DNA of 64,000 bases from a virus (IMGVR_UViG_3300042863_000830:3711-67710); one strand, 5' to 3'. Positions 11,254 through 64,000 are shown, counted from the first letter of the stretch. Numbers and translations: made by a program. The notes: generated from the letters alone by a model not told the origin.

Positions 11254-11258
11254 TTGAA

Positions 11259-28327: not shown

Positions 28328-28347
28328 ATTAATTAACTTTATCCCCT

Positions 28348-29672: not shown

Positions 29673-29673
29673 T

Positions 29674-32137: not shown

Positions 32138-32660
32138 TTTTGATGCTGGTGATCGATTTGACAGGTTAATGAATGAATTTAAAGAGCAGGGCATCAAAGA
32201 CTTTTCTTTTTTCCCTGCCGTATATGATTCTCATTCAGTTAAAAAAGCAATTAATTTAGCTCATAAACAATGCGTTCAGTATGCCAAAGACACAGGTTTG
32301 CCTGAAATATGCATAATGGAGGATGACGTTCATTTTACCAATCCGGATAGTTTTTCGTACTTTTTAAGAAATAAGCCATTAGATTTTGATATTTATTTGA
32401 GTGGCATATACATTGGGGAGATTCGTGAAGATCAAACAGTAGATAATTTTACTGGTTTTCATTGCTACATAGTCAACAGCAAGTTTTACGATACATACCT
32501 AAATACGCCTTTAGATGAGCATATAGACCGTGCGTTAGGGGGGTTAGGGAAGTATGTGGTTTCCGATCCTTTTATTGCTATTCAATACAACGGATTTTCA
32601 TATAACACAAAAATGGAAATGAATTATGATAGTTTATTGGAAGGCAGAAAATTATATTAA
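32115..32660 (+). CDS. glycosyltransferase family 25-like
   Basis: LAHK, IMEDD, DIYLSG, HCYIV, HID. Confidence 0.75.
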   Translation: MKIAVIHNFDAGDRFDRLMNEFKEQGIKDFSFFPAVYDSHSVKKAINLAHKQCVQYAKDTGLPEICIMEDDVHFTNPDSFSYFLRNKPLDFDIYLSGIYIGEIREDQTVDNFTGFHCYIVNSKFYDTYLNTPLDEHIDRALGGLGKYVVSDPFIAIQYNGFSYNTKMEMNYDSLLEGRKLY

Positions 32661-35092: not shown

Positions 35093-35578
35093 ATGGTAAA
35101 GTCTTTATTGTCAGCAAACTTGAGAAAAGGTTTGCAAGAGGCACTTCAAATGGAATTATATCAATCTAACCTTTGGAAGCACTTAGCTAATCAATTACAA
35201 AGATTAGGTTACTTTGGTAGTCAGAAATATTTTTTAGATGAAAGTGCGGAAGAATTGACGCATTACCAAATTATCGTTGATTTTATGAATGATATGGGGG
35301 ATTGCGCTAGTTTGCCTGAAATTGAAGCAATGAAGGATAAAGTTGAATCAATTGGCGATGCATTAGAAATTGGGTACGAAACAGAGCTAGATGTATTAAA
35401 TATGTACAAAGAGCTACAAAAGAAAGCCCAAGAAGAAGATTGCGCAGTTGGCATTTTCTTACAACAATTCGTTACAATTCAAGTAAAAGCAGTCGGTCAT
35501 TACGGAGATTTGTTAGCTAAGTATAAAGTTGCTGAATACACTAAAGAGCTTTTAGAATTTGATCAACACATTAATTAA
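35093..35578 (+). CDS. ferritin-like protein
   Basis: ELYQS..., ESAEELTH, E..V and Q residues matching a ferritin four-helix bundle. Confidence 0.75.
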   Translation: MVKSLLSANLRKGLQEALQMELYQSNLWKHLANQLQRLGYFGSQKYFLDESAEELTHYQIIVDFMNDMGDCASLPEIEAMKDKVESIGDALEIGYETELDVLNMYKELQKKAQEEDCAVGIFLQQFVTIQVKAVGHYGDLLAKYKVAEYTKELLEFDQHIN

Positions 35579-40275: not shown

Positions 40276-43200
40276 ATGGCAATACAAGGTCTTTTTACGG
40301 GTGAAGTAAAAATAAGAGAATTAAATGGTGTGTTAATTGCCGCCAATGGTGTTGTAGATTCTGTTGGTAATATTACTTCAGGAACAGCCGGTACTTCTGG
40401 TTCATCTGGCACTGCTGGTACTTCCGGCTCTGCTGGTACTTCTGGTTTTGCAGGTACGGCAGGTAGACTTGTAAATAATTTTGTAGCAACAGCAGGACAA
40501 ACTACTTTTTATATTCCTAGCGGATATGATAATGGGATGGTGGATGTTTTTGTTAATGGAGTAAAATTATTCCCAAGCGATTTTACAGCCACAGATGGAT
40601 TTAATGTAATACTTAATAATCCTTTAAAAGTAGGCGATAATGTAGAGATAGATAATTTTGTATCTAGCTATGTTTCTTCTTCTGGTTCATCAGGGACGGC
40701 AGGCACCGCAGGAACTTCTGGAACAACTGGTACTTCAGGTATTGGTGGGGATAAGTATTATACAATATCTGTATCTATTTTTACATTAGGAACTGGTGGA
40801 TATCTTATGGTTTCTCCCGGCTTATCATACTCTCCTGCTCAATCAATTATTGTAGTACATGATAATACTCACTTTCAAGAATGTGAGGTAGTTTCTTATA
40901 ATGTTGTTACAGGAGAATTAGTATTTGGTGATCCTAATAGAGTTGTAGGCGGTGGAACATTCTCTAATTGGGTAGTGAACTTAGATGGAGCTTCTGGTGG
41001 TGATGGTTCTTCTGGTACAAGTGGAAGCTCTGGTTCAAGTGGTAGCTCTGCTACAAGTGGTACTAGCGGTACTACTGGTACTTCTGGTAGTTCAGGAAGC
41101 TCAGGTTCAAGTGGCTCTAGCGGTTCATCTGGCTCAAGTGGTTCAAGCGGTTCTAGTGGTACTTCCGGCTCCTCCGGAACATCTGCAACAAGTGGAAGCA
41201 GTGGTTCAAGCGGTTCGTCAGGTACTTCAGGTATAAATGGTACTTCAGGCACAACAGGTACTAGTGGTTCATCAGGTACAAGCGCAACTAGCGGTACAAC
41301 TGGAACTAGTGGCACTTCGGGTACAACAGGTACATCAGGTCTTTCAGGAGATAGATATAGAACAACATCTACTACAACATTTACTTTAGGCAATGCAGGT
41401 ACTATAACAATAGGAACACTATTGGGATATAGCCCTGCTCAATCAATAATTATAGTTTATGATGCTTCAAACTTTCAAGAGTGCGAGGTAGTATCATATG
41501 ATGCAAATACAGGTTCTTTAACATTTTTAGCCCCTACTAGAACAGTGGGTAGTGGTACTTATAGCGCATGGACAGTGAACTTGGATGGCGCGAGTGGTGG
41601 CGATGGTTCAAGCGGTACTTCTGGTACTTCTGCAACAGCAGGTACATCAGGTACTTCTGCAACGGCAGGCACCTCTGGTTCAAGCGGTACAAGTGGTACA
41701 ACAGGCACAAGTGGAACAACGGGTACTTCAGGAACAGCAGGAACAAGCGGAGTAAGCGGCATTTCAGCAGGACAGACTTATTATTTTAACCAAAGTGCAT
41801 CTTCTGATGTATCTCCTTATAAGGTATTAGCTACCGAACCTTCAACAGCAGCACAGCAAACTGTAACTGTTTCTGGGGTAAGTTCAGGATCAACTGCTTT
41901 AGTTAGTTCATTTCTAACTCCAGAATTAGGATTTACCATTATACCGGGCGGAGTACAAAGATTTCATTTACATTTTCTAAAACAAGCAAATGGTAACGCT
42001 TTTGAAGCATATGTAACAATAGAATTAGCAAACTCTGCGGGCGTTGGTTATGGTACAATAATACCTACAAATGCTTCAGAAGTAGACTTTTTAGATGCTT
42101 CAACACCGGTTGAGGTACTTACAGACTTAGTGCTTCCAACAACTGCGATTCTTGATACAGATCGCATTATTGTAAAGATTTACGTTACAAATTTTGGATC
42201 AGGAACTCACAATATAAATTGGTATACCGAAGGATCAACAAACTATTCTTATGTAATAACTTCAGTAGGTCAAATAGCAGGCACTTCTGGTTCATCAGGT
42301 ACTAGCGGATCAAGTGGAACATCTGGCGCAACCGGTTCATCAGGGGAAACTGGTACTTCCGGTTCTTCTGGAACAAGTGCAACTAGCGGTAGCTCTGGTA
42401 CATCTGGCGGCACTGGTTCGTCAGGCGAAACTGGTACGTCAGGTACTAGCGGTCTTTCAGGTACATCAGGGGCGCAAGGTACTTCTGGTTCATCAGGCAC
42501 TTCGGGTAACGCAACCACTTCTGCAAGAGCAGTTCAAGTATTTACTGCAACAGCAAGTCAAACAACTTTCACTGTAACCAATGGTTATAGCGTAGGAATG
42601 GTAGATGTGTTTGTAAATGGAGTTAAATTGGTTAATGGCGTGGATTATACGGCAACCAATGGTACTACTGTGGTATTAACAGATGCTTTAACAGTTGGTC
42701 AGATTGTTGAAATTGATAACTATTTGACTGCATTTTTACCAACCAATGCACTTAGAACAATAACTACATTTACTGCGACTGCTGGTCAGACCACATTTGC
42801 AGTTACATATACTCAAGGGTTAATAGATGTATTTTATAATGGTTCTAATTTAGCTCAATCAGAATATACTGCGACCAATGGTACAAGTATAATATTAGCT
42901 ACTGCTTGTCAAGTAAATGATATAGTAGTAGTATATGCTTATTCTTATGCAGTAGGAGCTTATAGTGGTATTGCTGGTAGTGGTACAATTAATACCATAC
43001 CAAAGTTCACCGCATCCGCATCAATAGGAGATAGTGCAATTACAGATGATGGAACAACTGTTACTTTAGTATCTAGAGCTTTAGCTGGTACAAGTGCTAC
43101 GTTTAATAGTAATCAAGCATTAACTGTTGTTGGCACAAATTCAACATCTGCAAATAATACTATAACTGGATATTCTGCTGATTTATATGCAGTTGCAGTT

Positions 43201-44289
43201 AGACAAAAAGGTGCATCTGCTGGTATAAGTGGAACTAATTTTATGGCACAAATAATAAGTGCAACGGGTGCTGAAGGATTAGAAATATATACCCCAAATT
43301 CAAAAGAATTAATTTTAGGCACAAATGCTACTGCAAGACTTACAATAGGCACTACTGGTGCTGCTACATTCTCAAGTAGTGTAAGAGTTAATAATGCAAA
43401 TGACATAGCAAGATTAAGTGTATTTGGAACTTCTGGTAATCCATCAATGACTGCTGATACAAATAACTTATTTTCAATTACGGGTAATTTAGGGCCACAA
43501 TTAAATATCGGTGGTTATAATGGTGCATCTTATGGTATGTGGTTACAAGTTAAAGATGCTAATAATAGTAATATTAATTACCCTATTTTATTACAACCAT
43601 TAGGAGGATCAGTTGCAATTGGAACTGCAAGTCCAAGTGCTTTATTACATTTAGCGGTTGCAAATGCAGCAGTAGATGGAACGAAAGGTGTAAAAATAAC
43701 AAATCCTGCTGGTACAACAGTGATGCTTGAGTGTGGAGTTAGTAGTGATTCTTTTGTAGGAACAACAAGTGCAAGTGATTTTAGTATAAGAACAGGCAAT
43801 TCAGAAAGAATGAGAATCACATCGGGGGGTAGTGTATTAATGGGAATTGGAACAAATTCTGCAAGTGCAAGATTAGCACTTGATGCAATTGGTATGGCAG
43901 TTTATGATGGTGGTAATTATAGACAATGCTATATGAATGGTAGCACAATGGCATGGTGGAATGGTAGTAATCAAGGAACTTTATCAAGTGCAGGGGTATG
44001 GACTGATGCATCAGATATTTCTATTAAAAAAGATGTTAAGGATATTGAATATGGCTTAGATGCAGTATTAAAGTTAAAGCCAAGAAGTTATAAAATGAAA
44101 GAAGATAATTTAGAACAAGTTGGTTTTATAGCACAGGAAGTTGAAGAAGTAATTAAAGAATTAGTATCAACAGACAATAGAGGTATGAAGGGATTATCTT
44201 ATGGACAATTAACTGCAGTTTTAGTAAAAGCAATACAAGAGTTAAAAGCAGAAATAGACGAACTTCATAAAATTGTAGCTACAAAATAA
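40276..44289 (+). CDS. tail fibre with Gly-(S/T)-S repeats and C-terminal S74 chaperone
   Basis: (GTS/GSS)n tracts; three FxATAxQTTF..DVFxNG domains; SDISIKKD...GFIAQE...LVKAIQE. Confidence 0.85.
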   Translation: MAIQGLFTGEVKIRELNGVLIAANGVVDSVGNITSGTAGTSGSSGTAGTSGSAGTSGFAGTAGRLVNNFVATAGQTTFYIPSGYDNGMVDVFVNGVKLFPSDFTATDGFNVILNNPLKVGDNVEIDNFVSSYVSSSGSSGTAGTAGTSGTTGTSGIGGDKYYTISVSIFTLGTGGYLMVSPGLSYSPAQSIIVVHDNTHFQECEVVSYNVVTGELVFGDPNRVVGGGTFSNWVVNLDGASGGDGSSGTSGSSGSSGSSATSGTSGTTGTSGSSGSSGSSGSSGSSGSSGSSGSSGTSGSSGTSATSGSSGSSGSSGTSGINGTSGTTGTSGSSGTSATSGTTGTSGTSGTTGTSGLSGDRYRTTSTTTFTLGNAGTITIGTLLGYSPAQSIIIVYDASNFQECEVVSYDANTGSLTFLAPTRTVGSGTYSAWTVNLDGASGGDGSSGTSGTSATAGTSGTSATAGTSGSSGTSGTTGTSGTTGTSGTAGTSGVSGISAGQTYYFNQSASSDVSPYKVLATEPSTAAQQTVTVSGVSSGSTALVSSFLTPELGFTIIPGGVQRFHLHFLKQANGNAFEAYVTIELANSAGVGYGTIIPTNASEVDFLDASTPVEVLTDLVLPTTAILDTDRIIVKIYVTNFGSGTHNINWYTEGSTNYSYVITSVGQIAGTSGSSGTSGSSGTSGATGSSGETGTSGSSGTSATSGSSGTSGGTGSSGETGTSGTSGLSGTSGAQGTSGSSGTSGNATTSARAVQVFTATASQTTFTVTNGYSVGMVDVFVNGVKLVNGVDYTATNGTTVVLTDALTVGQIVEIDNYLTAFLPTNALRTITTFTATAGQTTFAVTYTQGLIDVFYNGSNLAQSEYTATNGTSIILATACQVNDIVVVYAYSYAVGAYSGIAGSGTINTIPKFTASASIGDSAITDDGTTVTLVSRALAGTSATFNSNQALTVVGTNSTSANNTITGYSADLYAVAVRQKGASAGISGTNFMAQIISATGAEGLEIYTPNSKELILGTNATARLTIGTTGAATFSSSVRVNNANDIARLSVFGTSGNPSMTADTNNLFSITGNLGPQLNIGGYNGASYGMWLQVKDANNSNINYPILLQPLGGSVAIGTASPSALLHLAVANAAVDGTKGVKITNPAGTTVMLECGVSSDSFVGTTSASDFSIRTGNSERMRITSGGSVLMGIGTNSASARLALDAIGMAVYDGGNYRQCYMNGSTMAWWNGSNQGTLSSAGVWTDASDISIKKDVKDIEYGLDAVLKLKPRSYKMKEDNLEQVGFIAQEVEEVIKELVSTDNRGMKGLSYGQLTAVLVKAIQELKAEIDELHKIVATK

Positions 44290-45032
44290 TGCCATACGTT
44301 TATAGACATATCAGATTAGACAAAAACGAACCGTTTTACATAGGTATTGGTAGTGCTAAAAATTACTATAGGGCTTATGGAAAAGATAATAGAAACAAAC
44401 ATTGGCATAATATTGTAAAAAATACGAATTACGAAGTTGATATTTTGTTTGATAATCTTGATGATGACAGCGCAAGGGCAAAAGAAATAGAATTTATTAA
44501 ATTGTATGGTAGAGTTGATTTAGGAACAGGATGTTTGGTTAATTTAACAGATGGCGGAGATGGCTGTTTGAATAAAATTATAACTAAAGAAGTAGCAAAA
44601 AAGATGTCAGATTCTCATAAAGGTAAAAAACATACTGAAGAATGTAAAAAAAGGCTATCAGAATATCACAAAAAAAGATTGCAAGACCCAGAAATGCTTA
44701 AAAAGCATAAAGAATCAAGAATTGGCATAAAGCATAAAAATCCAATGTCTTTGGAACATAGGATTAAAATATCTGAAAATAACAAAAATCGTGTTATTAC
44801 TGATGAAACAAAGAATAGGATGTCTAAATGTAAAAAAACCATTATTTTACAATACGATTTAAACGGTAACTTTATCAAAGAATGGGAAGGAATAATTGAT
44901 GCTGTTAAGCAATATGGGACATCAACAAATATTACAAAGTGTTGTCAAGGTAAATTAAAAGAAGTATGTGGGTATATTTGGAAGTATAAACATCCAGAAA
45001 AGGTAGTTAAAAGAAAAAAACGTAACGAATAA
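44289..45032 (+). CDS. free-standing GIY-YIG-like homing endonuclease with NUMOD3/NUMOD1 repeats
   Basis: YVYRH...FYIGIG...R..E...NLTDGG; HTEECKKRLS; ILQYDLNGNFIKEW; GYIWKY. Confidence 0.85.
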   Translation: MPYVYRHIRLDKNEPFYIGIGSAKNYYRAYGKDNRNKHWHNIVKNTNYEVDILFDNLDDDSARAKEIEFIKLYGRVDLGTGCLVNLTDGGDGCLNKIITKEVAKKMSDSHKGKKHTEECKKRLSEYHKKRLQDPEMLKKHKESRIGIKHKNPMSLEHRIKISENNKNRVITDETKNRMSKCKKTIILQYDLNGNFIKEWEGIIDAVKQYGTSTNITKCCQGKLKEVCGYIWKYKHPEKVVKRKKRNE

Positions 45033-45044: not shown

Positions 45045-46562
45045 ATGCCATCATTAAATACAGGTAACGCAATTTTATCAAATGCAATAGCAGTAAATTC
45101 ATCTTATAATGTAGGTATAGGAGGAGCAGCTTCTGGTAGTTATAAATTACAAGTTACTGGAAATGTAAATGCAGATAATTTTATTATTCAACCAACTGGT
45201 TATGGTTTATTGGCCTCGTTATCAAGAGATTTAACTGGTTCAGGATTTGGTGTATTAAATTTAAGAAATGGTTCAAATGGGTTTATTCAACCAGCTGCCT
45301 TATCAGTAGATAGAACATATACATTACCAGATGCAAGTGGTACAATAGCCCTTACAAGTAACCTATCTGCTTACTTACCTTTAGCGGGTGGAACTTTGAC
45401 GGGTGGTGTAACTTTTGCGGGTGGTGTATATAATTTTATTGGTGCAAATAGATTTTTTGCTGCTGCAAGCGGCTCTATAAATTATTTATATACTGGCTCA
45501 ACAAATCTTACAATTCTTAACCAAGCAGATACTGCTACATTATTTACATTAGCCAATACTGGTGCTGCTAATTTTTCGGGTAATATAACGGCAAGTGGTG
45601 GTATTATAGTTTATGGAAGTAATAATTCAGGCTCACCGGCTGCATTAGGAACATCAACTGCAAAATTTCAGTTATTGAATGGTGGCGTTTATGGAATGGT
45701 GGCAGACGTTTTAACAAATGGTAATACATATTTACAAAGCCAAAGAACAGATGGAAATACGGCTGCTTATAATTTATTATTACAACCATTAGGTGGTAAC
45801 GTTGGAATTGGAACGAGTAGTCCAAGTCAAAAGTTGCACGTTTTAGGTGGCGCAGCAAATACTCAAACATTAGTTTTAGAATCTTCAATTGCAAATGCAA
45901 ATGCTTATGCTGTTTTTAAAAGTACTGCTAAATCATATATTACTGGATTATCTTTTGACTTTTCAAATAGTTATATAATATATGATGAAACTGCTGCTGC
46001 TGCAAGAATGGTAATCACATCGGGGGGTATGGTTGGGATAGGCTCAACTGGTTATTCTAATTTTAGGCTACAAATAACTGCAGCAACATCGGATAGTACA
46101 GCTTTTGCATTAGGGATAGCAAACTCAAATGTTCAAGATTTGTTTTATGTAAGAAATGATGGATTAACAAGTACAGGAACAAGACCAAATTCACCTTATA
46201 ACAATACAACAGGAGCAGGGGCAAATGCAATATTTGCTAATGACGGAACTTTACAAAGGTCAACTTCATCAATAAAATATAAAACCGATGTAAGAAATTA
46301 TGATAAAGGCTTAGAGAAGGTAATGCAATTAAGACCTGTTTATTATAAAGGCAAAAATGATGGAGATACACAATATGCAGGTTTAATAGCAGAGGAAATA
46401 AATGATTTAGGCTTGGTTGAATTTGTACAATATGCAGAAGATAAAACTCCAGATGCCATTTATTATGCAAATATGGTATCTTTATTAGTTAAAGCAATCC
46501 AAGAACTAAACCAAAAAGTAAACGAACAACAACAAACAATAAACTCACTTATTAATAGATAA
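45045..46562 (+). CDS. tail fibre with S74 chaperone
   Basis: NVGIG repeats; SSIKYKTD...GLIAEE...LVKAIQE. Confidence 0.85.
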   Translation: MPSLNTGNAILSNAIAVNSSYNVGIGGAASGSYKLQVTGNVNADNFIIQPTGYGLLASLSRDLTGSGFGVLNLRNGSNGFIQPAALSVDRTYTLPDASGTIALTSNLSAYLPLAGGTLTGGVTFAGGVYNFIGANRFFAAASGSINYLYTGSTNLTILNQADTATLFTLANTGAANFSGNITASGGIIVYGSNNSGSPAALGTSTAKFQLLNGGVYGMVADVLTNGNTYLQSQRTDGNTAAYNLLLQPLGGNVGIGTSSPSQKLHVLGGAANTQTLVLESSIANANAYAVFKSTAKSYITGLSFDFSNSYIIYDETAAAARMVITSGGMVGIGSTGYSNFRLQITAATSDSTAFALGIANSNVQDLFYVRNDGLTSTGTRPNSPYNNTTGAGANAIFANDGTLQRSTSSIKYKTDVRNYDKGLEKVMQLRPVYYKGKNDGDTQYAGLIAEEINDLGLVEFVQYAEDKTPDAIYYANMVSLLVKAIQELNQKVNEQQQTINSLINR

Positions 46563-46567
46563 AGATC

Positions 46568-47974
46568 ATGGGCAAAACAAGGGATACCGGTTTTTTAAAT
46601 AATTGCGTCTTTACAGACTCCTCTAATAATGTGGGTATAGGTGCAGCAGCCAATGCCTCATTTAAACTACAAGTAACAGGAGCTACTAACCTTACTGGTG
46701 CTTTAAGTGGTACAAGTGCTACGTTTAGTGGTCTTACGCAAGATGCAGTACAGACAGTTATAAGAATGTCTGGTAGAAATGCATCTAATCAAATTAAAGC
46801 GTTAGATTTTAAATTAACTGCTGGTACTCCTTTATGGACAATTTCAACTGCTGCAGAAGGAACAGATGCAGGATTAAATATTATGCCTAATGGAACATCT
46901 GGCTTAGCATTAGCTTATACCGGTGCTGCTACATTTACACAAACAGGAGGTTCTTTTTTAATAGATACCAATGGACAAGTTATTTCTAAACAAGCATTAG
47001 ACGTTGCAACGGCAGGTGGAAGATTTACGGGTCAAAGCAATAGAGGTTCTTTAGGTGCTATTCATATTGAGCAAACAACAACAGGAGCAGATGGAGGTTA
47101 TATTGATTTTAGAACATCAAATAGTGGCTCAACTACTCCTACTGCTAAAATGCGTCTTGACGCTTCAGGTAACGTTGGAATCGGAACGAGTAGCCCTGCA
47201 GGTAAATTAGATGTTTATATTGGTGCATATCAAAATTTAATATTTAAAGCTGAATCTACATATCAATCAAGTTTAAGATTTAATGAATCAACTAATGGTC
47301 CAAGATTATATAGTGATGCTCAAACTGAAGAGTTTAGAATGCAACAATCATTTACTAGTACTGGATTTTTAAGTTTTTATACTGGACCTACCGAACGAAT
47401 GAGAATCACATCGGGGGGTTTTATTAAGGCAAGTAATAACGGTAGTTATATTGGAGTAAATGGTGCGTATCACGAATTTAGAAATACAAATACAAGCGCT
47501 ACTGATAATGTTGCAATAATCACTGTATTAGGAAGTACAAGTAATAATGCATCTAATTATCATTACATAGCAGTCACAGATGGGTCAGACAGAATGTTTG
47601 TTTATGGTAATGGAAATATAGTAAACACTAATGGTTCTTATGGTACACTTGCATCTGATAGAAGATTAAAAGAAAACATCGTATCTGCTACACCTAAACT
47701 TTATGACATAATGAGGTTGAATGTGGTAAATTTTAATTTGATAGGTAATGAGGACAAGCACATAGGATTTATAGCACAAGAAATGCAGGAGGTATTCCCA
47801 TCTTTTGTATATCAAAATGACACAAGAAAATATGATGATGACGGAAACTTAATAAGTGGGTATGAAGATTCATTAGGTTTAAAGGTTGGAATGGAGTTTG
47901 CTATTTTGACAAAGTGTATTCAAGAGCAACAAGCACAAATAGAAGAATTAAAAGCAATGATTGCAGCTAAATAA
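46568..47974 (+). CDS. tail fibre with S74 chaperone
   Basis: NVGIG and ERMRITSGG repeats; SDRRLKENI...GFIAQE. Confidence 0.85.
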   Translation: MGKTRDTGFLNNCVFTDSSNNVGIGAAANASFKLQVTGATNLTGALSGTSATFSGLTQDAVQTVIRMSGRNASNQIKALDFKLTAGTPLWTISTAAEGTDAGLNIMPNGTSGLALAYTGAATFTQTGGSFLIDTNGQVISKQALDVATAGGRFTGQSNRGSLGAIHIEQTTTGADGGYIDFRTSNSGSTTPTAKMRLDASGNVGIGTSSPAGKLDVYIGAYQNLIFKAESTYQSSLRFNESTNGPRLYSDAQTEEFRMQQSFTSTGFLSFYTGPTERMRITSGGFIKASNNGSYIGVNGAYHEFRNTNTSATDNVAIITVLGSTSNNASNYHYIAVTDGSDRMFVYGNGNIVNTNGSYGTLASDRRLKENIVSATPKLYDIMRLNVVNFNLIGNEDKHIGFIAQEMQEVFPSFVYQNDTRKYDDDGNLISGYEDSLGLKVGMEFAILTKCIQEQQAQIEELKAMIAAK

Positions 47975-47989: not shown

Positions 47990-48679
47990 ATGGCTTACAT
48001 TTATAGACATATAAGAATTGATACAAATATGCCTTTTTATATTGGCATAAGCAATACTAATGATGAATATAAGAGAGCATATTCTACATACGATAGAAGT
48101 ACTCAATGGAAAAGGATTACAAACAAGACTGAATTTGAAGTTGAAATTCTAATTCAAGAATTGACTTGGGAGGAAGCACAAGCCAAAGAAAGAGAGTTTA
48201 TATCATTATATGGCAGAAGGGACTTGAAAACAGGTACGCTTTGTAATTTAACTAATGGAGGCGAAGGATTTGATGGTTATAAATTATCAGATGCTGCAAG
48301 ACAAAAAATGAGTAATTCTCAAAAGGGTAATACAAATTGGAAGAATAGAGTTGTTACTGAGGAAATGAAAAGAAAAATATCTTTAGCCAATACTGGTAAG
48401 AAAAGGACTGAAGAACAAAAAATGTATAAAAGGTTAAAATATTCTGGTGTTAATAGTGCTAATTATGGTCAGAAATATAGCGAAGAAAGAAAAAAGAAAA
48501 TGTCTGAATCAAAGATTAAACGAGCAATTTTACAATTTGATTTAGATGGGAACTTTATAAAAGAGTGGTCTTCTAAGAAAGAAGCTGCTAAAAATGGATA
48601 TAATGAAAGCAATATATGGAAATGTTGCAATGGCTTAGGTAAAACACATAGAAAATGTATTTGGAAATATAAAATTTAA
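47990..48679 (+). CDS. second GIY-YIG-like homing endonuclease (NUMOD3/NUMOD1)
   Basis: YIYRH...FYIGI...NLTNGG; SEERKKKMS; LQFDLDGNFIKEW; own TAAATTTG element at 47978-47985. Confidence 0.85.
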   Translation: MAYIYRHIRIDTNMPFYIGISNTNDEYKRAYSTYDRSTQWKRITNKTEFEVEILIQELTWEEAQAKEREFISLYGRRDLKTGTLCNLTNGGEGFDGYKLSDAARQKMSNSQKGNTNWKNRVVTEEMKRKISLANTGKKRTEEQKMYKRLKYSGVNSANYGQKYSEERKKKMSESKIKRAILQFDLDGNFIKEWSSKKEAAKNGYNESNIWKCCNGLGKTHRKCIWKYKI

Positions 48680-49252: not shown

Positions 49253-50779
49253 ATGAGCAAAAATACAGTCCTTAGTGAAATACCTAATGTATCAGGCATA
49301 ATAAAGCAAGTTGGTACAAGTGGTTTTGCAACTGCAACCCCTAATGTGGATTATCAACTACCAATTAGCTTAACCACATTTGGCACAACTGGACCGGCTA
49401 CTTTTAGTAGCAATGTATTAAATATACCTATTTATGGATCAAGTGGTACTACGGGTACTTCAGGTACTAGTGGTAATAGTGGATCTTCTGGATCAAGTGG
49501 TAGTAGTGGATCTTCTGGCTCGTCAGGCTCAAGTGGTACTACGGGAACATCAGGATCTTCTGGCTCGTCAGGATCTTCAGGATCTTCAGGTTCATCAGGA
49601 TCTTCAGGAACTACCGGTACAAGCGGTACTACTGGAACTTCAGGAACTACTGGTACTTCAGGTACAAGCGGCATTAGCGGGGACAGATATTTAACATCAT
49701 CAGCTACTTCATTCACATTAGGCAATGCTGGAACTATTACTGTCGGCGTTGGATTAGCTTATAGTCCTAGTCAAACAGTTATCATATCTTTTAATCCTAG
49801 CAACTATCAAGAATCAGTTGTAACATCTTATAACAACGGCACAGGCAGTTTAGTATTTGGTGCGCCAATCACAACAGTTGGTTCAGGCACATACAATGCA
49901 TGGTTAGTAAACCTAGCCGGTGCTAGTGGTGGCGATGGTAGTTCAGGGACTTCGGGGGCAAATGGCACATCGGGAATAAATGGCACATCTGGCGCAAATG
50001 GTACAAGTGGCTCAAGCGGTTCAAGCGGTTCAAGCGGCTCAAGCGGCTCAAGCGGAGTGAACGGAACAAGTGGCTCAAGCGGTTCAAGCGGTGTAAATGG
50101 GAATAACGGATCTTCAGGCACAAGCGGTGTAAATGGGAATAACGGATCTTCTGGAACAAGTGGAGTAAACGGAACGGCTGGTATTAGTGGCACATCTGGC
50201 GCAAATGGCTCGTCAGGTACAAGCGGCGTTTCTGGCTCATCAGGTTCTTCAGGAGTAAACGGAGGTGCCGGTTCGTCAGGTACAAGTGGCGCGCAAGGTG
50301 GTAATGGTACAAGTGGTGTTTCGGGTTCGTCAGGTACTTCAGGTGCAAACGGAGGCAATGGTTCTTCAGGCACAAGTGGGGTAAATGGAACTGGATTTAA
50401 TTCTATTTCTCCAACAACTGCAGGAGCTGTGCTTACAGCCAATGGTACATCTAATAGTGCAACAGCAAATACAGGAGTAACAATTAGCGGTTCTAATCTA
50501 ACTGCTGCTGCATTTTTTGAAAGTTCAGATATAAGATTTAAGAATGTATTAGAAACAAATCCATCAATAGACTTACCAATAGATGTAATTAAATTTACTA
50601 GAACAGATGATGATAACAATGCAGTAAGATATGGTTATTCGGCTCAACAAGTGCAATCATATCTTCCAGAGGCAGTTTCAGGTGGTGAAAAGTTATCCGT
50701 AAATTACATGGATGTTCATACATTAAAAATAGCAGCATTAGAAAAACGTATTGCAGAATTAGAAGCTAAATTAAAATAA
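49253..50779 (+). CDS. fibre with long Gly-X-Ser/Asn repeats and S74 chaperone
   Basis: (GSS/GTS/GVN)n; SSDIRFK...YGYSAQ. Confidence 0.8.
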   Translation: MSKNTVLSEIPNVSGIIKQVGTSGFATATPNVDYQLPISLTTFGTTGPATFSSNVLNIPIYGSSGTTGTSGTSGNSGSSGSSGSSGSSGSSGSSGTTGTSGSSGSSGSSGSSGSSGSSGTTGTSGTTGTSGTTGTSGTSGISGDRYLTSSATSFTLGNAGTITVGVGLAYSPSQTVIISFNPSNYQESVVTSYNNGTGSLVFGAPITTVGSGTYNAWLVNLAGASGGDGSSGTSGANGTSGINGTSGANGTSGSSGSSGSSGSSGSSGVNGTSGSSGSSGVNGNNGSSGTSGVNGNNGSSGTSGVNGTAGISGTSGANGSSGTSGVSGSSGSSGVNGGAGSSGTSGAQGGNGTSGVSGSSGTSGANGGNGSSGTSGVNGTGFNSISPTTAGAVLTANGTSNSATANTGVTISGSNLTAAAFFESSDIRFKNVLETNPSIDLPIDVIKFTRTDDDNNAVRYGYSAQQVQSYLPEAVSGGEKLSVNYMDVHTLKIAALEKRIAELEAKLK

Positions 50780-50781: not shown

Positions 50782-51339
50782 ATGGCATATAGTGACTTAG
50801 CAAATAATCAAGGTGTATCTTTTAATAGCTTAATCAGTGGAGTGTCTCAAGGATACTTTAGTGCAAAAACTACTATACCCTCTACCAACAAAATGGCTAC
50901 AAAGTCTGCTTGTAATACGTATGTAACTGTAAACCCCTCATATCCTTCTTTTGCAGCAAAAGCAGATAATCAATTAGTTGTAAAACAAGATTTACAAAAT
51001 AATGAAGCCACTTTATACATTACAAATAATTTCTTTACAGGAACTATAACAAACGTTACAGTTAATGGAGTTAGTATTACAGGTGCTTCATTCCCATTAG
51101 ATATAGGTAATGGCACAACAGGTTACACTACACAAATAGGTACATACGATATATTGGTTTATTATGCAGATGCTACTAACCTTGACAATTATATGCGTAT
51201 AGAAGATTCTGAATATAATACTGCCTGTATAGATGGATTTTCTTCATTAGGTCCAGGACCTTATTATGTAACATTCTCAAGTCAAGTAATCAATACAAGT
51301 GTTGGTGTTGTTATTGAATCTGGTGATGGAAATTGTTAG
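50782..51339 (+). CDS. putative structural protein
   Basis: beta-rich, follows the fibre gene. Confidence 0.5.
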   Translation: MAYSDLANNQGVSFNSLISGVSQGYFSAKTTIPSTNKMATKSACNTYVTVNPSYPSFAAKADNQLVVKQDLQNNEATLYITNNFFTGTITNVTVNGVSITGASFPLDIGNGTTGYTTQIGTYDILVYYADATNLDNYMRIEDSEYNTACIDGFSSLGPGPYYVTFSSQVINTSVGVVIESGDGNC

Positions 51340-54184
51340 ATGGCGCAGTTTTCCCCAATAGTTGCCATTGATGGATCTTGCCCATAAAATCTTTTATTTT
51401 ATCTATAACCATTTGTGCAGTAATTGATTTAGTGCATTCAAATTGTCTTTCAGTCCCTTTATGATCAGGACACCAATTCCAATCTCCTGCGTTTAATCTA
51501 TGCCTATTAAAGCAACCACTACACTTTCCTTGAGGTGCAGATACTCTTATACAATCTTCCATCTCAGCAAAAGGTTCAGAAAAACCACTAATAATAACGG
51601 TTGGGATATTTAAAGACCAAGATAGCCAACTTAAACCGCTCCCTATACCTATAAAGAACTCCGATTTAAGCATTTCTTCCATAACTGACTCAATACTACC
51701 ATTCGGGTGGACAACTACGCCATTTGGGGCTATATTGCCCATATAGTCAACGCCTTCTTTGGATATAAGTTTAACCACATATCCTTTGCTAATCAAATAG
51801 TCTACCACTTCTTGCCATCCTTTTGGATTATTCCAATATTTAGCTTGTGCGGTAGAATGTATAGCAATGACTACTTGCTTAATTTTTTCAACAGGTTTTA
51901 TCTTTAATCTAGGTCTTACCTCCTTGTACTCTAACCCTAGTATGTTAGTAGCAGCCTTTTGCATTGAAATTGTATGAGGCACTTCAGGTTCTTTATTTTC
52001 ATCATAAAACCACCCGACTCTGTATAAAGCATATACGTTTTGAACCACATCACCCGGACTTACAAATTCTAATTCAGGGTAATCAAACATATGATTCCAG
52101 AAAGTAGATACAATGACATGGCAATTATGTTTCTTTTTAAACTCCAAAGCATATGGCATCCAAGCTAAAGTGTCCCCTAGTGATTTACTTTCAAGCGTTA
52201 TAAAGACTCTCTTGCTTTCAAGGTTTAGCTTGTTTTCAAATATCAAATTACCTTGATCCCATATTTTAACCTCCCATTCAGTAAACCATTGTCTATTTAG
52301 TTTTACCCAATTATTAACATCTAAATGATTATTATAGACACAATTACCATTTTCGTAAAATTCAACATAAAATCTTTTGTCTAAAAGAACCTTATCTCGT
52401 TGGACATCATTTGTATAGTCTATTCCTTCAATGTCAACTTTGTTATCCTTTTTCAAGTCAGCCATTAACAACTCTTTAACCTTGTAGTTGTTTTCTTTTA
52501 AAAAGTTATAGAACTTAACTTCAAGTATATTGAAAGATGTGCCATTTGTGTAGTAATCTTTTTTGTCTTTAAATTTGGTTACAAATGATAAGATAGCATC
52601 TGTTTTGGCTGATAAAAAAGCAGAGCAATATGAATCTTCTTCATAAGACAGGTTAGTGTATTTATAGACTACAAAATCATTTGTATCTAATTCCTTTAAA
52701 TTGTTGTTTATTGTTGCTTTAGTAAGCTGGTAGTCGTAATTGATTATGTTTACCTTCTTATAGCCTAGTTTTTTAGCCAATTCTATTCCATTACGCATTA
52801 AGGTATACACGCAATACCCATGTTCTTTTTCAAATAATTGGTACTCTTTTTCTCCTTTTTTATTTGTAAACCAATGATAATATGCCACATTGTATTTAGC
52901 AAATTCACTCTTAAACAACAAAGGATTCTCTTTTGTATAAATAACATAATCACAAAGCTCTTGTGCATCTTCCTCTATTGGAAAATTCGCAGACAAAATG
53001 ATATTCGTGTTTAAACTAGATAAGCAATTTTTAAGCAGTTGTTTCCTGAAATCGTTATTAGGGTGGGCTAAAACAATTGATACAGAATCCTTATCTTTTT
53101 TAGCACTAACATTAATTCCTTTAATCTCCAAGTATGGATTATCTACAAAATGTTGTATTATAATAGGCTTTTGCTCCTTAATTGGTAGTTCAAGTAACTT
53201 TAAATAGGCTTCTTCATGCCTTAATCCAAAAATCAATGAATTGTTATCGGTAGGTACGTTGTAATTACATTCTAAGGTACTTAAATCAGTATCTATTGGA
53301 TTAATATACTTATCATACATACCATCATATTGAGGCAAATTACGGGCAATAATGGGCAGTTTGTAACCAATAGCTTCACGAAGTACCAATGGATTTAGCT
53401 CCCAAGTAGAATTAAACATAAAAATATCAGCCGCAGACATAAAGGTAGATATATCAGTCCTTTCCCCCCACACTTTCACATTGCTAGGTAAATCCTTCAT
53501 TAGTGGCTCCCAATAGTCCATAAAGTTCCCCGCTTGATTGCCGATAAAATGAAACATCATATCAGGGTACTTACGAGCAATTTCTAACCCTTCAGCTTGA
53601 TTCTTGCCCGAAGTCCAAAGCCCTACATTTATAACATGCTTCTTCTTTAAATCCATGCCTAAATCCTTCTTAGCGTGTATTTTTTCTATCCATAAATTAA
53701 GCTTTAAATCTATTGGGTAAGGTATGGTTACAAACTTACTATCCATCCCTGCAAATATATCTTCGTGCCAAGAGGTGCAAAAAGCATACATATCAGGATG
53801 GTATCGTTTACTATCAAGAGGTCTAAAATTAGAGTTATGACAAGTTTCTACTATGCGCCAAGTCCTATCATTGCAATACAATTCATTAAAAAGTGTGTCA
53901 TTGCCCATTGATTCTGGCATTTCATCCAAATGAACAATATCTATTCCGTTATCCCTAATTATATCCATAGCTCGCATTTTGTCGCTATCAAGACTATAAA
54001 AGTTATTACCCAATAAAGAGATTATTTGATCCCTTTGTACCGGGAATAACTTTCCATAATCCTCGTATTCCACAACAAAAATTTCAAACGATTCAGCATA
54101 GTCAAGTAAAGTTTGAATACGTTTAAGTACAAATTGAGGCATACCGCCCGTTGAGATATGCGACATTAGATATAATATTTTCAT
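51311..54184 (-). CDS. multidomain glycosyltransferase: GT4, GT-A-like insert and Aah/TibC-like protein O-heptosyltransferase
   Basis: GT4 motifs TGGMP, KNQ, ELNPLVLREA; Aah/TibC-like SLGDTLAW, STAQAKYWNNP.GW, FFIGIGSGLSWLSW, ISGFS, CSGC...WCP.H...QFECTKSI. Confidence 0.85.
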   Translation of the reverse strand: MKILYLMSHISTGGMPQFVLKRIQTLLDYAESFEIFVVEYEDYGKLFPVQRDQIISLLGNNFYSLDSDKMRAMDIIRDNGIDIVHLDEMPESMGNDTLFNELYCNDRTWRIVETCHNSNFRPLDSKRYHPDMYAFCTSWHEDIFAGMDSKFVTIPYPIDLKLNLWIEKIHAKKDLGMDLKKKHVINVGLWTSGKNQAEGLEIARKYPDMMFHFIGNQAGNFMDYWEPLMKDLPSNVKVWGERTDISTFMSAADIFMFNSTWELNPLVLREAIGYKLPIIARNLPQYDGMYDKYINPIDTDLSTLECNYNVPTDNNSLIFGLRHEEAYLKLLELPIKEQKPIIIQHFVDNPYLEIKGINVSAKKDKDSVSIVLAHPNNDFRKQLLKNCLSSLNTNIILSANFPIEEDAQELCDYVIYTKENPLLFKSEFAKYNVAYYHWFTNKKGEKEYQLFEKEHGYCVYTLMRNGIELAKKLGYKKVNIINYDYQLTKATINNNLKELDTNDFVVYKYTNLSYEEDSYCSAFLSAKTDAILSFVTKFKDKKDYYTNGTSFNILEVKFYNFLKENNYKVKELLMADLKKDNKVDIEGIDYTNDVQRDKVLLDKRFYVEFYENGNCVYNNHLDVNNWVKLNRQWFTEWEVKIWDQGNLIFENKLNLESKRVFITLESKSLGDTLAWMPYALEFKKKHNCHVIVSTFWNHMFDYPELEFVSPGDVVQNVYALYRVGWFYDENKEPEVPHTISMQKAATNILGLEYKEVRPRLKIKPVEKIKQVVIAIHSTAQAKYWNNPKGWQEVVDYLISKGYVVKLISKEGVDYMGNIAPNGVVVHPNGSIESVMEEMLKSEFFIGIGSGLSWLSWSLNIPTVIISGFSEPFAEMEDCIRVSAPQGKCSGCFNRHRLNAGDWNWCPDHKGTERQFECTKSITAQMVIDKIKDFMGKIHQWQLLGKTAPSNNFHHQIQ

Positions 54185-54300
54185 AATCCGATTTTAGTAT
54201 TCAGCAAATTTATATTAATAAATTTAATTTAAAAAATTAATATAAAAAAGTTAACGTAAAAAATCGCATAAAAAATATCAAACATCAGTATATTTGACAT
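54185..54300. promoter_or_regulatory. divergent promoters for the GT fusion gene and the lysis module
   Basis: TAAATTTG on minus at 54205-54212; TATATTTG on plus at 54289-54296. Confidence 0.6.
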
Positions 54301-54858
54301 ATGTATAAGAACATATTTATAGTCGTATTATTGTTTATCATTTTTTTAATGACAAAATCTGCTATTTCTTTAAAAGACATACAGCCTGTCGTAATAGAAA
54401 AGGTAGATACTTTAAGACAAGATACCACCATATATAAATGGAAGAAAGGAAAAGACATAGTGCATGATACTACAATATACGATACAACAATCAGTTTTCT
54501 AAATGTAGATACCAGCGCTATTTTAAAAGATTTCTTTGCCAAGAATGTATTCAAAGATACTTTATCATTACCAGAGGGAATAGTAGCTATAAATGACACT
54601 ATATCACAAAACAAGATATATGGCAGAAGTTTTAACGCTAGCTTAACACAAAAAACTATTGTGAAGGTAAGAGAGATACGCACGCCACCGCCACCACCAA
54701 AAGCATCATTGTATTGGGGAGTAATGGCAACAAAGCAAGAAAACAATTTTGGATACGGAGGAGGCTTGATTTACAAATCAGCTAACAAAGGAATTATCCA
54801 ATTAAATATTACTAACAACAAACAGTTCCAATTAGGATACTACTCTAAAATATTTTAA
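54301..54858 (+). CDS. membrane-anchored protein of the lysis module (spanin-like candidate)
   Basis: N-terminal hydrophobic helix, DT repeats, amphipathic beta C-terminus ending in Phe. Confidence 0.45.
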   Translation: MYKNIFIVVLLFIIFLMTKSAISLKDIQPVVIEKVDTLRQDTTIYKWKKGKDIVHDTTIYDTTISFLNVDTSAILKDFFAKNVFKDTLSLPEGIVAINDTISQNKIYGRSFNASLTQKTIVKVREIRTPPPPPKASLYWGVMATKQENNFGYGGGLIYKSANKGIIQLNITNNKQFQLGYYSKIF

Positions 54859-63922: not shown

Positions 63923-64000
63923 ACCAATACCAACACATCCCCCTAACCACATACATACAACTGCCTGACCTGACCACATTGCAACCACTAAACCACCCTA
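63923..64000 (-). repeat. inverted repeat, right copy (at least 78 bp, runs off the window)
   Basis: exact reverse complement of 314-391. Confidence 0.95.

What the first reader, a model, noticed from the sequence alone, without database searches (positions are those of the whole stretch)
51311..54184. Phage-encoded Aah/TibC-like protein O-heptosyltransferase fusion next to Ser-rich fibres
Seen: the C-terminal ~350 aa carry Aah/TibC-like motifs including a four-Cys cluster (CSGC, WCP, ECT), fused to an N-terminal GT4; the gene has its own promoter and runs antisense at the end of the fibre block. Known: Aah/TibC are iron-containing enzymes that heptosylate Ser in SGG-containing strand-loop-strand repeats of the autotransporters AIDA-I and TibA. 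Also seen: the fibres contain ITSGG, ASGG and very many GSS/GTS serines. Inference: this is the priming and elongating enzyme of a phage fibre O-glycosylation pathway, perhaps completed by the terL-portal operon. The sugar donor is uncertain, as no ADP-heptose genes are in the window.
Basis: partly seen in the sequence, partly recalled or inferred. Interest (0 to 1): 0.85.

Follow-up and report, generated by a model that had tools for sequence, protein, structure and literature searches.

The report
Phage three-module protein heptosyltransferase gene
A phage of flavobacteria-like hosts carries one large gene that joins three sugar-adding enzymes, one of them the type that bacteria use to put heptose on adhesin proteins, and it travels together with serine-rich collagen-like tail fibres, so it probably sugar-coats the phage's own fibres.

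Summary
ORF 51311..54184 (-) encodes 957 aa. Residues ~585-931 are a TibC/Aah-type (BAHT) domain: TIGR04414 scores 261.5 bits against a cut-off of 200, TibC 4rap gives E 3.5e-52, and the AF2 model matches TibC at TM 0.84. The catalytic Asp, Thr/Lys/Trp sugar contacts and four iron-binding Cys are kept. The adenine-contact Arg is Val. It is not an LPS-type GT9 (23.6 bits vs 185.3; TM about 0.45-0.51).

The N-terminus is GT4.

The family is large in metagenomes (>3,394 proteins) and occurs in at least two phage lineages. In the window's lineage, 15 other records carry both the gene and Ser/Thr-rich collagen-like fibres. Two relatives (G004, G025) lack both. In a second, myovirus-like lineage a separate TibC-like gene follows a 1,700-3,070-aa protein (31 of 37 loci). 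RfaE-like adenylyltransferase (41 of 79) and kinase (37 of 79) genes lie next to it.

G000 encodes ADP-heptose pathway genes, so a donor is plausible. The terL-portal sugar operon persists without the gene, so it is not its obligatory partner.

Fibre glycosylation is inferred, not shown. This is a new variant of a known enzyme kind.

The parts
51311..54184 (-). Whole gene, 957 aa plus stop: GT4, GT-A-fold module and BAHT (TibC/Aah-type) module in one polypeptide
   Evidence: ORF list and translation. Homologues start with the same N-terminal motif.
53180..54184 (-). Module 1, residues ~1-335: GT4-type GT-B glycosyltransferase
   Evidence: PF00534 E 6.9e-9 and PF13692 E 1.3e-7, residues 171-284. 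NCBIfam gives only generic GT4 matches far below their cut-offs.
52433..53179 (-). Module 2, residues ~336-584: no sequence family; GT-A / nucleotide-diphospho-sugar transferase fold
   Evidence: No Pfam or NCBIfam hit. AF2 model pLDDT 81.3. Foldseek gives 160 PDB matches at E<=0.001, and the listed rows are mostly GT-A-fold transferases or nucleotidyltransferases, TM 0.33-0.46. VIA gives Z up to 14.4, with 154 chains at Z>=8. The Atlas gives viral hypotheticals, with WavE at 0.88 as a lead only.
51392..52432 (-). Module 3, residues ~585-931: BAHT-type O-heptosyltransferase module. It has an N-terminal beta-barrel, a GT-B core and four Cys. The kept residues are D671, T778, K782, W853, C888, C891, C905 and C917. 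V834 stands where TibC has R286 and G848 where it has P300.
   Evidence: TIGR04414 261.5 bits. TibC E 3.5e-52. Residue mapping. AF2 pLDDT 90.7. TibC TM 0.84, rmsd 2.6 A.
51314..51391 (-). C-terminal 26-aa tail beyond the end of homologues; overlaps the convergent ORF 50782..51339
   Evidence: Homologues cover about 97% of the query. pLDDT below 50 at the model end.
54185..54300 (.). AT-rich divergent spacer between the gene and the plus-strand gene 54301..54858; presumed promoter region, not verified
   Evidence: Sequence. Promoter scans are not above chance.
40276..44289 (+). 1337-aa tail fibre with 85 G-X-Y triplets (89 Ser, 55 Thr), two repeated globular domains ending in NLDGASGGDG, and a C-terminal S74 chaperone domain; candidate acceptor
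   Evidence: Pfam Collagen E 2.3e-31 and Peptidase_S74 E 1.4e-13. PHROG tail fibre families. Tract counts.
49253..50779 (+). 508-aa collagen-like fibre, 69 G-X-Y triplets (77 Ser, 29 Thr); the last-but-one gene before the glycosyltransferase; candidate acceptor
   Evidence: Pfam Collagen E 5.6e-31. PHROG tail fibre families. Tract counts.
45045..47974 (+). Two further fibre proteins (505 and 468 aa) with S74 chaperone ends and no collagen tracts
   Evidence: Peptidase_S74 E 3.7e-6 and 4.9e-14. PHROG tail families for the 505-aa protein.
50782..51339 (+). 185-aa ORF of unknown family between the last fibre and the glycosyltransferase
   Evidence: No Pfam or PHROG match. Weak homologue in G001 beside its fibre.

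Best explanation
The gene encodes a cytoplasmic, three-module glycosyltransferase made during infection.

Its C-terminal module is a genuine TibC/Aah-type (BAHT) enzyme. I infer that it transfers a heptose from a nucleotide-activated donor onto serine hydroxyls of a protein. The donor is most likely host-made ADP-heptose.

The GT4 module and the GT-A-fold module then add further sugars. One polypeptide would thus prime and extend a short O-glycan.

The most likely acceptors are the phage's own tail-fibre proteins encoded just upstream, above all the two fibres with long Ser/Thr-rich collagen-like tracts. They would be modified before or during trimerisation and assembly.

What is shown: the domain identities, the conserved catalytic and metal-binding residues, the TibC-like fold, the gene neighbourhood and the co-occurrence pattern.

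What is inferred: the donor, the acceptor, the order of the three steps and any effect on the virion.
For: Family identity:
- TIGR04414 equivalog at 261.5 bits against cut-off 200. TibC E 3.5e-52.
- AF2 model (pLDDT 90.7) matches TibC 4rap at TM 0.84/0.80, rmsd 2.6 A, 359 columns, 32% identity. WaaC, WaaF and another GT9 chain reach TM 0.45-0.51.

Residues named as essential in the TibC paper (sections 10-12 read):
- D110, T226, K230, W305 and the four Fe-Cys are present in P0001.
- Among 157 domain rows, D is kept in 157, K in 155, W in 157 and each Cys in 153.

Neighbourhood logic:
- In two enterobacterial plasmids fetched as references, the BAHT gene lies directly before an ESPR-domain or putative autotransporter gene.
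- In the window it lies at the end of the fibre block.

Co-occurrence in the window's lineage:
- 11 of 13 window-type loci have a collagen-like ORF in the held flank, with 64-92% Ser+Thr in X/Y positions. The other 2 are cut within about 1.8 kb on that side.
- 4 of 5 long relatives have the gene. All 4 have Ser/Thr-rich collagen fibres.
- G004 (MCP 60% identical, CheckV 92%) and G025 (MCP 90%, fibre-to-lysis region covered) lack both.

Second lineage:
- The TibC-like gene follows an ORF of 1,716-3,072 aa, 27-34% Ser+Thr+Gly, in 31 of 37 loci with at least 4 kb upstream.
- An RfaE-II-like gene is present in 41 of 79 loci and an RfaE-I-like gene in 37 of 79. This points to a nucleotide-heptose donor.

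Donor in the bin: G000 has rfaE domain II at 191.9 bits (cut-off 181.5), an rfaE-I-like gene at 312 (345), a gmhA-like gene at 198 (209) and two GT9 genes.

Partner domains: of 50 sampled relatives' clusters, 22 carry GT4 and 14 carry FkbM methyltransferase domains. That fits glycan building on the first sugar.
Against: - No experiment: no fibre or virion protein is shown to be modified.
- TibC's adenine-contact Arg286 is Val here. In 157 rows it is Arg in only 42 and Val in 36. The nucleotide part of the donor is therefore not certain.
- TibC's known acceptors are beta-helical strand-loop-strand repeats (TibC paper), not collagen triple helices.
- SGG is not enriched in the fibres.
- The second lineage has the enzyme with no collagen-like ORF nearby: 0 of 66 loci.
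- Its giant neighbour has no PHROG family, so calling it a fibre is inference.
- The gene is transcribed opposite to the fibre genes, so co-expression is not implied.
- The co-occurrence rests on related genomes, with only two informative negatives.
- Five other fragments without the gene were uninformative or unclear.
- The host link rests on binning, similar G+C (33.6% against 32.3%) and terL relatives. No spacer-like match was found.
Confidence: 0.5

Rival explanations
1. The enzyme modifies a host protein or host surface structure during infection. This could mask receptors and stop further phages, or stop progeny sticking to debris. It is the usual reading of phage glycosyltransferase and rfaE 'auxiliary metabolic genes'.
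For: - The gene stands alone on the opposite strand, like a moron.
- Papers on aquatic phages read phage rfaE and glycosyltransferases as LPS/O-chain modification (passages seen in PMC7029224, and PMC11671562).
- In a megaphage the homologues have no obvious fibre neighbour.
Against: - The BAHT profile and fold are those of protein-serine enzymes, not LPS enzymes.
- The gene is gained and lost together with a fibre type in close relatives.
- No host acceptor was identified. I did not search G000 for autotransporters or other candidates.
- In the host's family only 2 of 17 genomes, G000 included, carry the family.
Confidence: 0.22
2. The enzyme glycosylates virion proteins other than the collagen-like fibres. 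Candidates are the capsid, the 185-aa ORF product or the non-collagen fibres. In this reading the collagen link is only a by-product of whole fibre-module exchange.
For: - The second lineage has the enzyme without collagen-like genes.
- ITSGG-type motifs occur in the non-collagen fibres too.
- Capsid and tail-tube glycosylation is the known case in mycobacteriophages (recalled; only a search listing was seen).
Against: Within the window's lineage the presence of the gene tracks the collagen-type fibres. The capsid genes are shared by relatives that lack it.
Confidence: 0.18
3. The C-terminal module is an LPS-type GT9 acting on a lipid-linked core.
For: Pfam places residues 767-870 in Glyco_transf_9 at 25.7 bits against cut-off 22. 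G000 has heptose genes and two GT9 genes, so heptose glycolipids probably exist in the bin's organism.
Against: - LPS heptosyltransferase I scores 23.6 bits against cut-off 185.3. RfaC scores 25.1 against 437.
- WaaC, WaaF and another GT9 chain reach TM 0.45-0.51 against 0.84 for TibC.
- The TibC-specific beta-barrel and four-Cys insertion are present.
Confidence: 0.03
4. The module is BAHT-like in fold but uses a donor other than ADP-heptose, such as another nucleotide or another sugar.
For: Arg286, which the TibC paper gives as the basis of adenine specificity, is Val. Pro300, the D,D-heptose determinant, is Gly. The window carries no heptose genes (searches found none on C1).
Against: - The second-lineage enzymes also have Val at that site, yet sit beside genes whose best matches are RfaE domain II and I.
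- The heptose O4 contact Trp305 and the phosphate contacts Thr226 and Lys230 are kept.
- One of the two plasmid BAHT references also has Gly at the Pro300 site; the other has Ala.
Confidence: 0.2

Closest known systems
TibC / Aah, bacterial autotransporter heptosyltransferases (BAHT; TIGR04414; PDB 4RAP, 4RB4)
   Same: Profile above the curated cut-off, about 32-35% identity and the same fold (TM 0.84). The catalytic Asp, Thr/Lys/Trp donor contacts and the four iron-binding Cys are present, as is the N-terminal beta-barrel.
   Different: - It is fused behind two other glycosyltransferase-type modules, whereas the two plasmid reference genes code for about 407 and 444 aa.
- It is phage-borne.
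- No autotransporter is encoded next to it; the neighbours are tail fibres.
- The adenine-contact Arg is Val.
- Thumb-tip residues are Tyr-Met instead of Phe-Val.
- Dodecamer formation and iron binding are untested.
LPS heptosyltransferases WaaC / WaaF (GT9)
   Same: Same CAZy-type superfamily (GT9, GT-B fold) and probably the same kind of donor.
   Different: Scores lie far below the family cut-offs and TM is only 0.45-0.51. They lack the beta-barrel and the Cys4 insertion, and their acceptor is a glycolipid.
Virion glycosylation in mycobacteriophages by phage-encoded glycosyltransferases (Freeman et al. 2023; recalled, only a search listing seen)
   Same: Phage-encoded enzymes that O-glycosylate the phage's own structural proteins in the cytoplasm. 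This is the same kind of outcome as proposed here.
   Different: Different enzyme families and hosts (Actinobacteria), and capsid and tail-tube targets. No BAHT-type heptosyltransferase is involved as far as I recall.
Glycosylated collagen-like surface proteins such as Bacillus anthracis BclA (recalled from general knowledge, no call)
   Same: Thr/Ser-rich G-X-Y repeats carrying many O-glycans on a filament that projects from a particle surface.
   Different: Different glycosyltransferases and sugars, and a bacterial spore rather than a virion. This is an analogy only.
PBCV-1 A64R capsid glycosyltransferase and other GT-A enzymes (2p6w; Z 12.5)
   Same: The middle module shares the GT-A nucleotide-sugar transferase fold. 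A64R is a virus-encoded enzyme acting on a virion protein.
   Different: About 9% identity. The fold level does not separate glycosyltransferases from sugar-phosphate nucleotidyltransferases, which score equally.

Membership tests
BAHT (TibC/Aah O-heptosyltransferases, TIGR04414) | Sequence profile above the curated equivalog cut-off | tested here: met
   261.5 bits against 200, residues 611-931, profile 37-372 of 374. The whole-genome search gives 264.5 bits.
BAHT (TibC/Aah O-heptosyltransferases, TIGR04414) | TibC protomer fold: N-terminal beta-barrel, atypical GT-B core, hairpin and Cys4 insertions | tested here: met
   AF2 pLDDT 90.7, with strands 20-80 before the GT-B core. TM 0.84/0.80 and rmsd 2.6 A to 4rap over 359 columns.
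BAHT (TibC/Aah O-heptosyltransferases, TIGR04414) | Catalytic base Asp110 | tested here: met
   D671 in SLGDTLAW aligns with D110. D is present in 157 of 157 rows.
BAHT (TibC/Aah O-heptosyltransferases, TIGR04414) | Donor contacts Thr226, Lys230, Trp305 | tested here: met
   T778, K782 and W853.
BAHT (TibC/Aah O-heptosyltransferases, TIGR04414) | Adenine contact Arg286 | tested here: not met
   V834 in P0001. Arg is present in only 42 of 157 rows, including both plasmid references. The second-lineage enzyme also has Val.
BAHT (TibC/Aah O-heptosyltransferases, TIGR04414) | Four Cys of the iron finger (Cys339, 342, 358, 370) | tested here: met
   C888, C891, C905 and C917. Each is Cys in 153 of 157 rows. 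Iron binding itself is not testable here.
BAHT (TibC/Aah O-heptosyltransferases, TIGR04414) | Ring-shaped dodecamer | not testable with these tools
   Not attempted: too large for the complex tool. The effect of the 584-aa N-terminal fusion on assembly is unknown.
BAHT (TibC/Aah O-heptosyltransferases, TIGR04414) | Adjacent autotransporter substrate gene | tested here: not met
   The plasmid references have an ESPR-domain or putative autotransporter gene next to the BAHT gene. The window has tail-fibre genes instead.
BAHT (TibC/Aah O-heptosyltransferases, TIGR04414) | Heptose transfer from ADP-heptose to protein serine | not testable with these tools
   Biochemical. Indirect support only: RfaE-like genes beside relatives' genes and heptose genes in G000.
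LPS heptosyltransferases (WaaC/WaaF) | Profile above the family cut-off | tested here: not met
   TIGR02193 scores 23.6 against 185.3. NF008204 scores 25.1 against 437.
GT4 (Glycos_transf_1) | Pfam profile above the gathering score | tested here: met
   PF00534 at 35.9 bits against 26.4 and PF13692 at 32.4 against 27, residues 171-284.
GT-A fold glycosyltransferases (middle module) | GT-A fold and a DxD-type metal motif | tested here: inconclusive
   The fold is met: Z up to 14.4, with 154 chains at Z>=8, and Foldseek E down to 7.6e-6. Nucleotidyltransferases score as high as glycosyltransferases. There is no sequence family. The only conserved motif seen is NYDY; reading it as DxD-like is my inference.

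The most novel reading that the evidence does not exclude
Aquatic phages of at least two unrelated lineages use TibC-type protein O-heptosyltransferases, usually fused or paired with GT4, GT-A and sugar-methyltransferase modules, to build heptose-primed O-glycans on their own tail fibres. This would be a second, independent system of virion glycosylation. On this reading the phage 'rfaE auxiliary metabolic genes' that have been read as LPS remodelling instead supply ADP-heptose for coating the virion. Ser/Thr-rich collagen-like tracts would then be a new acceptor type for the BAHT family.
Probability: 0.4. Interest if true: 0.8.

Novelty: new variant of a known kind. Interest (0 to 1): 0.62.

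Why it matters
BAHT enzymes are known as virulence helpers that heptosylate autotransporter adhesins in enterobacteria. Here the same catalytic module is found in phages.

- **Scale.** More than 3,394 related proteins were found in the large protein collection, and 257 stretches in viral contigs. Yet only 4 of 50,697 GenBank phage records carry it. The single cultured one, Microcystis phage Mel-JY01, labels it 'methyltransferase FkbM'.
- **Virion glycosylation.** If the acceptors are fibres, virion glycosylation extends to phages of Gram-negative aquatic bacteria.
- **Phage rfaE genes.** It would give a concrete role to phage rfaE genes.
- **Enzymology.** It would offer a one-polypeptide prime-and-extend O-glycosylation enzyme for glyco-engineering.
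- **Testability.** The question can be tested directly, because laboratory E. coli makes ADP-heptose.

I found no paper describing phage BAHT enzymes. The search library lacks most subscription journals, and supplements were closed.

Tried and rejected
- **Near-identical DNA in GenBank phages:** no match.
- **PHROGs:** no family for P0001, for the second-lineage TibC-like protein or for its giant neighbour.
- **Promoter and terminator scans:** at chance level.
- **SGG as acceptor motif:** not enriched. The ITSGG motif sits in three fibre proteins here; I recall it as common in fibre stalks of phages without this enzyme.
- **terL-portal operon as partner:** rejected as obligatory, because G004 and G025 keep it without the gene.
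- **Ferritin-like gene as an iron-supply partner:** G025 keeps it without the TibC-like gene and G004 lacks it, so there is no clean link.
- **DNA-glycosylation reading:** considered and dropped. No hydroxymethyl-pyrimidine genes were seen among the ORFs scanned. Not all small ORFs were scanned.
- **Spacer-like matches between C1 and the rest of G000:** none except the overlap with C321.
- **Five further relatives' fragments without the gene**. G025 was informative. G026 ends right after its fibre. G023 is unclear. G022 and G024 were not examined further.
- **Literature:** one search was badly designed and uninformative. One search found nothing relevant in PMC12014285.
- **Not used:** sequencing-run tools, the metagenome-contig scan and the genome-contig scan.


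Full report
**What is there**

The window is almost exactly one 63,641-bp contig (C1) of a 4.25-Mb, 423-contig genome bin. It is a phage. It carries:
- terL at 24967-27015, whose best matches are podophages of Flavobacterium, Cellulophaga, Tenacibaculum and Maribacter at about 29% identity;
- portal, capsid and fibre genes with an M15 endolysin;
- a primase-type replication gene.

ORF 51311..54184 on the minus strand encodes 957 aa. It is the only minus-strand gene between the plus-strand fibre block and the plus-strand lysis-like genes.

**The C-terminal module**

Residues 611-931 match NCBIfam TIGR04414 (hepto_Aah_TibC, equivalog) at 261.5 bits against a curated cut-off of 200. LPS heptosyltransferase models reach only 23.6 and 25.1 bits against cut-offs of 185.3 and 437. 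The solved TibC chain 4rap_A matches at E 3.5e-52, and WaaC at 0.057.

I read sections 11 and 12 of the TibC structure paper (PMC4358343) in full, and passages of section 10. It names these residues:
- Asp110 as catalytic base;
- Thr226, Lys230, Arg286 and Trp305 as donor contacts;
- Pro300 as the D,D-heptose determinant;
- Cys339, 342, 358 and 370 as iron ligands.

In the window's protein these positions read as follows:
- D671, T778, K782 and W853 are kept;
- C888, C891, C905 and C917 are kept;
- Arg286 is V834;
- Pro300 is G848.

I aligned 157 domain rows. They comprise the best 150 representative clusters, two enterobacterial plasmid BAHTs, a second-lineage phage enzyme and the query. Asp is present in 157, Lys in 155, Trp in 157 and each Cys in 153. 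Arg286 is kept in only 42, against Val in 36.

An AlphaFold2 model of residues 585-957 has pLDDT 90.7 and pTM 0.87. It superposes on TibC at TM 0.84/0.80, rmsd 2.6 A, over 359 columns. WaaC, WaaF and another GT9 chain reach TM 0.45-0.51.

The domain is therefore a member of the BAHT family and not an LPS-type GT9. There are two exceptions among the family's features: the missing adenine-contact Arg and the missing autotransporter neighbour.

**The other two modules**

Residues 171-284 match GT4 profiles above their cut-offs.

Residues ~336-584 have no Pfam, NCBIfam or PHROG family. A model built with 30 homologues has pLDDT 81.3. It matches GT-A-fold nucleotide-diphospho-sugar transferases:
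- Foldseek gives 160 PDB matches at E<=0.001, at modest TM of 0.33-0.46.
- VIA gives Z up to 14.4, with 154 chains at Z>=8.

Glycosyltransferases and sugar-phosphate nucleotidyltransferases score alike, so the fold is clear and the activity is not. The first strand-helix, SVSIVLAHPNNDFRKQLLKNCLSSL, looks GT2-like to me; that is my reading, not a test. The protein Atlas gave only viral hypotheticals, with WavE at 0.88 as a lead.

**How common it is**

- The large protein collection holds more than 3,394 relatives among the 8,000 candidates scored. Of the 120 listed, 24 are three-module forms covering at least 95% of the query at 60-92% identity. Many others are GT4+TibC forms of about 680 aa.
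- The representative library has 1,418 clusters at E<=0.001 for the C-terminal domain, and 716 at E<=1e-30.
- Of the best 149 clusters, 21 are at most 450 aa, 67 are 451-800 aa and 61 are longer.
- In a sample of 50 (every third cluster), 48 match GT9, 22 GT4, 14 FkbM methyltransferase and 4 Methyltransf_24.
- Viral contigs gave 257 stretches, of which 79 loci were kept.
- Only 4 of 50,697 GenBank phage records carry the TibC-like part. These are three megaphage records and the cultured Microcystis phage Mel-JY01, where a 1226-aa protein is labelled 'methyltransferase FkbM'.
- In the host bin's family, 2 of 17 genomes have a match, G000 included, and 0 of 13 high-quality ones. The gene is mobile and not part of the core genome.

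**Two phage lineages**

*Lineage A, the window's type.* This comprises 13 of the 79 loci. The gene lies beside collagen-like fibre genes. Eleven of the 13 have an ORF with at least 45 residues of G-X-Y in the held flank, with 64-92% Ser+Thr in X/Y. The other two are cut within about 1.8 kb on that side.

*Lineage B, the other 66 loci.* Its terL is 56-57% identical to Mel-JY01 and to Flavobacterium myophage 'immuto'. The gene order there is:
- a GT4 + Methyltransf_24 + GT25-like protein of 727 aa;
- a separate 379-aa TibC-like protein scoring 296.7 bits on TIGR04414;
- a 127-aa protein whose best family is RfaE domain II (100.7 bits, below the cut-off of 181.5);
- a 251-aa protein whose best family is RfaE domain I (109.8 bits, below 345).

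By tblastn the adenylyltransferase-like gene is present in 41 of 79 loci and the kinase-like gene in 37 of 79. Neither occurs in lineage A or the window.

Upstream, 31 of 37 lineage-B loci with at least 4 kb of flank have an ORF of 1,716-3,072 aa with 27-34% Ser+Thr+Gly. In L031 this ORF has a CBM5/12 match but no PHROG family. No lineage-B locus has a collagen-like ORF.

**Co-occurrence test in lineage A**

Capsid-protein relatives gave 38 loci.
- Of five long records, four have a TibC-like gene, as GT4+TibC open frames of 673-697 aa. One (G004) has none.
- The four positives all have Ser/Thr-rich collagen fibres.
- G004 is 66.3 kb, has a capsid protein 60% identical and CheckV completeness 92%. 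It has a single 746-aa fibre, no collagen tracts and no TibC-like gene. It keeps homologues of all eight terL-portal sugar genes.
- G025 has a capsid protein 90% identical. Its fragment covers the fibres, the DUF7936 gene, a lysis-region gene and the next module. It has neither collagen tracts nor the gene.
- Four other fragments without the gene were uninformative or unclear.

In total, 15 other records plus the window have both features. Two have neither. None with adequate coverage has one without the other. These genomes are kin, so this is suggestive and not a statistical proof.

**Donor**

The window has no heptose genes. The bin has:
- rfaE domain II above cut-off (191.9 against 181.5);
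- an rfaE-I-like gene (312 against 345);
- a gmhA-like gene (198 against 209);
- two GT9 genes.

The host link itself rests on binning, similar G+C (33.6% against 32.3%) and the terL relatives. No spacer-like match was found.

**Mechanism proposed**

During infection the cytoplasmic enzyme uses host ADP-heptose to put heptose on serines of the phage's fibre proteins. Its GT4 and GT-A-fold modules then extend the glycan.

Shown: domain identities, residues, fold, synteny and co-occurrence.

Inferred: donor, acceptor, order of steps and benefit to the virion.

The points against are listed in the Against line. The main ones:
- the acceptor type differs from TibC's beta-helical repeats;
- SGG is not enriched;
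- lineage B lacks collagen tracts;
- Arg286 is absent;
- the gene is antisense to the fibre genes;
- nothing has been measured.

**Literature**

My searches found no paper on phage-encoded BAHT enzymes. Two papers on aquatic phages read phage rfaE and glycosyltransferases as LPS-related (passages seen). Virion glycosylation in mycobacteriophages is recalled; I saw only a listing of 24 papers that hold the phrase.

**Verdict**

This is a new variant of a known enzyme kind: a phage-borne, three-module BAHT fusion tied to a fibre type. It is widespread and undescribed, and its target is testable but untested.

Noticed in passing
window 1-391 and 63924-64000; G000 contig C321: Window 1-391 equals the last 391 bases of the 4,248-bp contig C321, which carries phage-like genes. 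The window's last bases are the reverse complement of window ~321-390. The 63.6-kb unique part is therefore flanked by the same sequence in inverted orientation. IMG/VR classes two close relatives (G001, G002) as having inverted terminal repeats. The phage may have kb-sized inverted terminal repeats and a genome of about 72 kb.
   Followed up: partly
window 27015-32660: There are eight sugar-related genes between terL and portal: GT25-like, GT2, GT11, Methyltransf_24, NAD-dependent epimerase/dehydratase, FkbM methyltransferase, GT47-like and GT25-like. All eight are kept in G004, and the four covered are kept in G025. Both relatives lack the TibC-like gene. Their target is unknown; it may be a second glycosylation system.
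   Followed up: partly
window 35093-35578: A ferritin-like protein (PF00210, E 6.4e-17) is encoded between the portal and scaffold-like genes of the structural block. It is present in G001 and G025 and absent from G004.
   Followed up: partly
window 44289-45032 and 47990-48679: Two related ORFs with NUMOD1/NUMOD3 motifs, which look like homing endonucleases, sit between the fibre genes.
   Followed up: no
L031 13309-14440, and 41 / 37 of 79 viral loci: Split RfaE-like adenylyltransferase and kinase genes lie directly after the TibC-like gene in a myovirus-like lineage. A protein of more than 1,100 aa with an N-terminal cytidylyltransferase-like domain follows them.
   Followed up: partly
L090 4750-8430 (Microcystis phage Mel-JY01, PP395634.1): The 1226-aa protein annotated 'methyltransferase FkbM' contains the middle and TibC-like modules (query residues 366-926, 44% identity). 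It lies next to a 'structural protein' and upstream of a cytidylyltransferase-like gene and terL. It is the only cultured phage found with this domain.
   Followed up: partly
window 16994-24625: A 2543-aa protein just before terL has no Pfam or PHROG family. G001 has a homologue, but G004 shows no match.
   Followed up: no
L031 1-9024: The ORF upstream of the lineage-B glycosyltransferases, at least 3007 aa long, has a CBM5/12 match. It also has an intein-splicing-domain match below cut-off (30.1 bits against 35.8) near residue 2532-2674.
   Followed up: no
G018:C32 13338-14354 (L141) and 8640-9344 (L142): One other genome of the same genus has a stand-alone 382-aa TibC-like open frame (255 bits). 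A weak second GT9-like hit lies 4 kb upstream. The context was not examined.
   Followed up: no
L147 (megaphage LR756501.1) 8995-14782: In a 735-kb megaphage the homologous modules are spread over a 1140-aa and a 725-aa protein. No RfaE-like gene or obvious fibre lies within 9 kb.
   Followed up: partly
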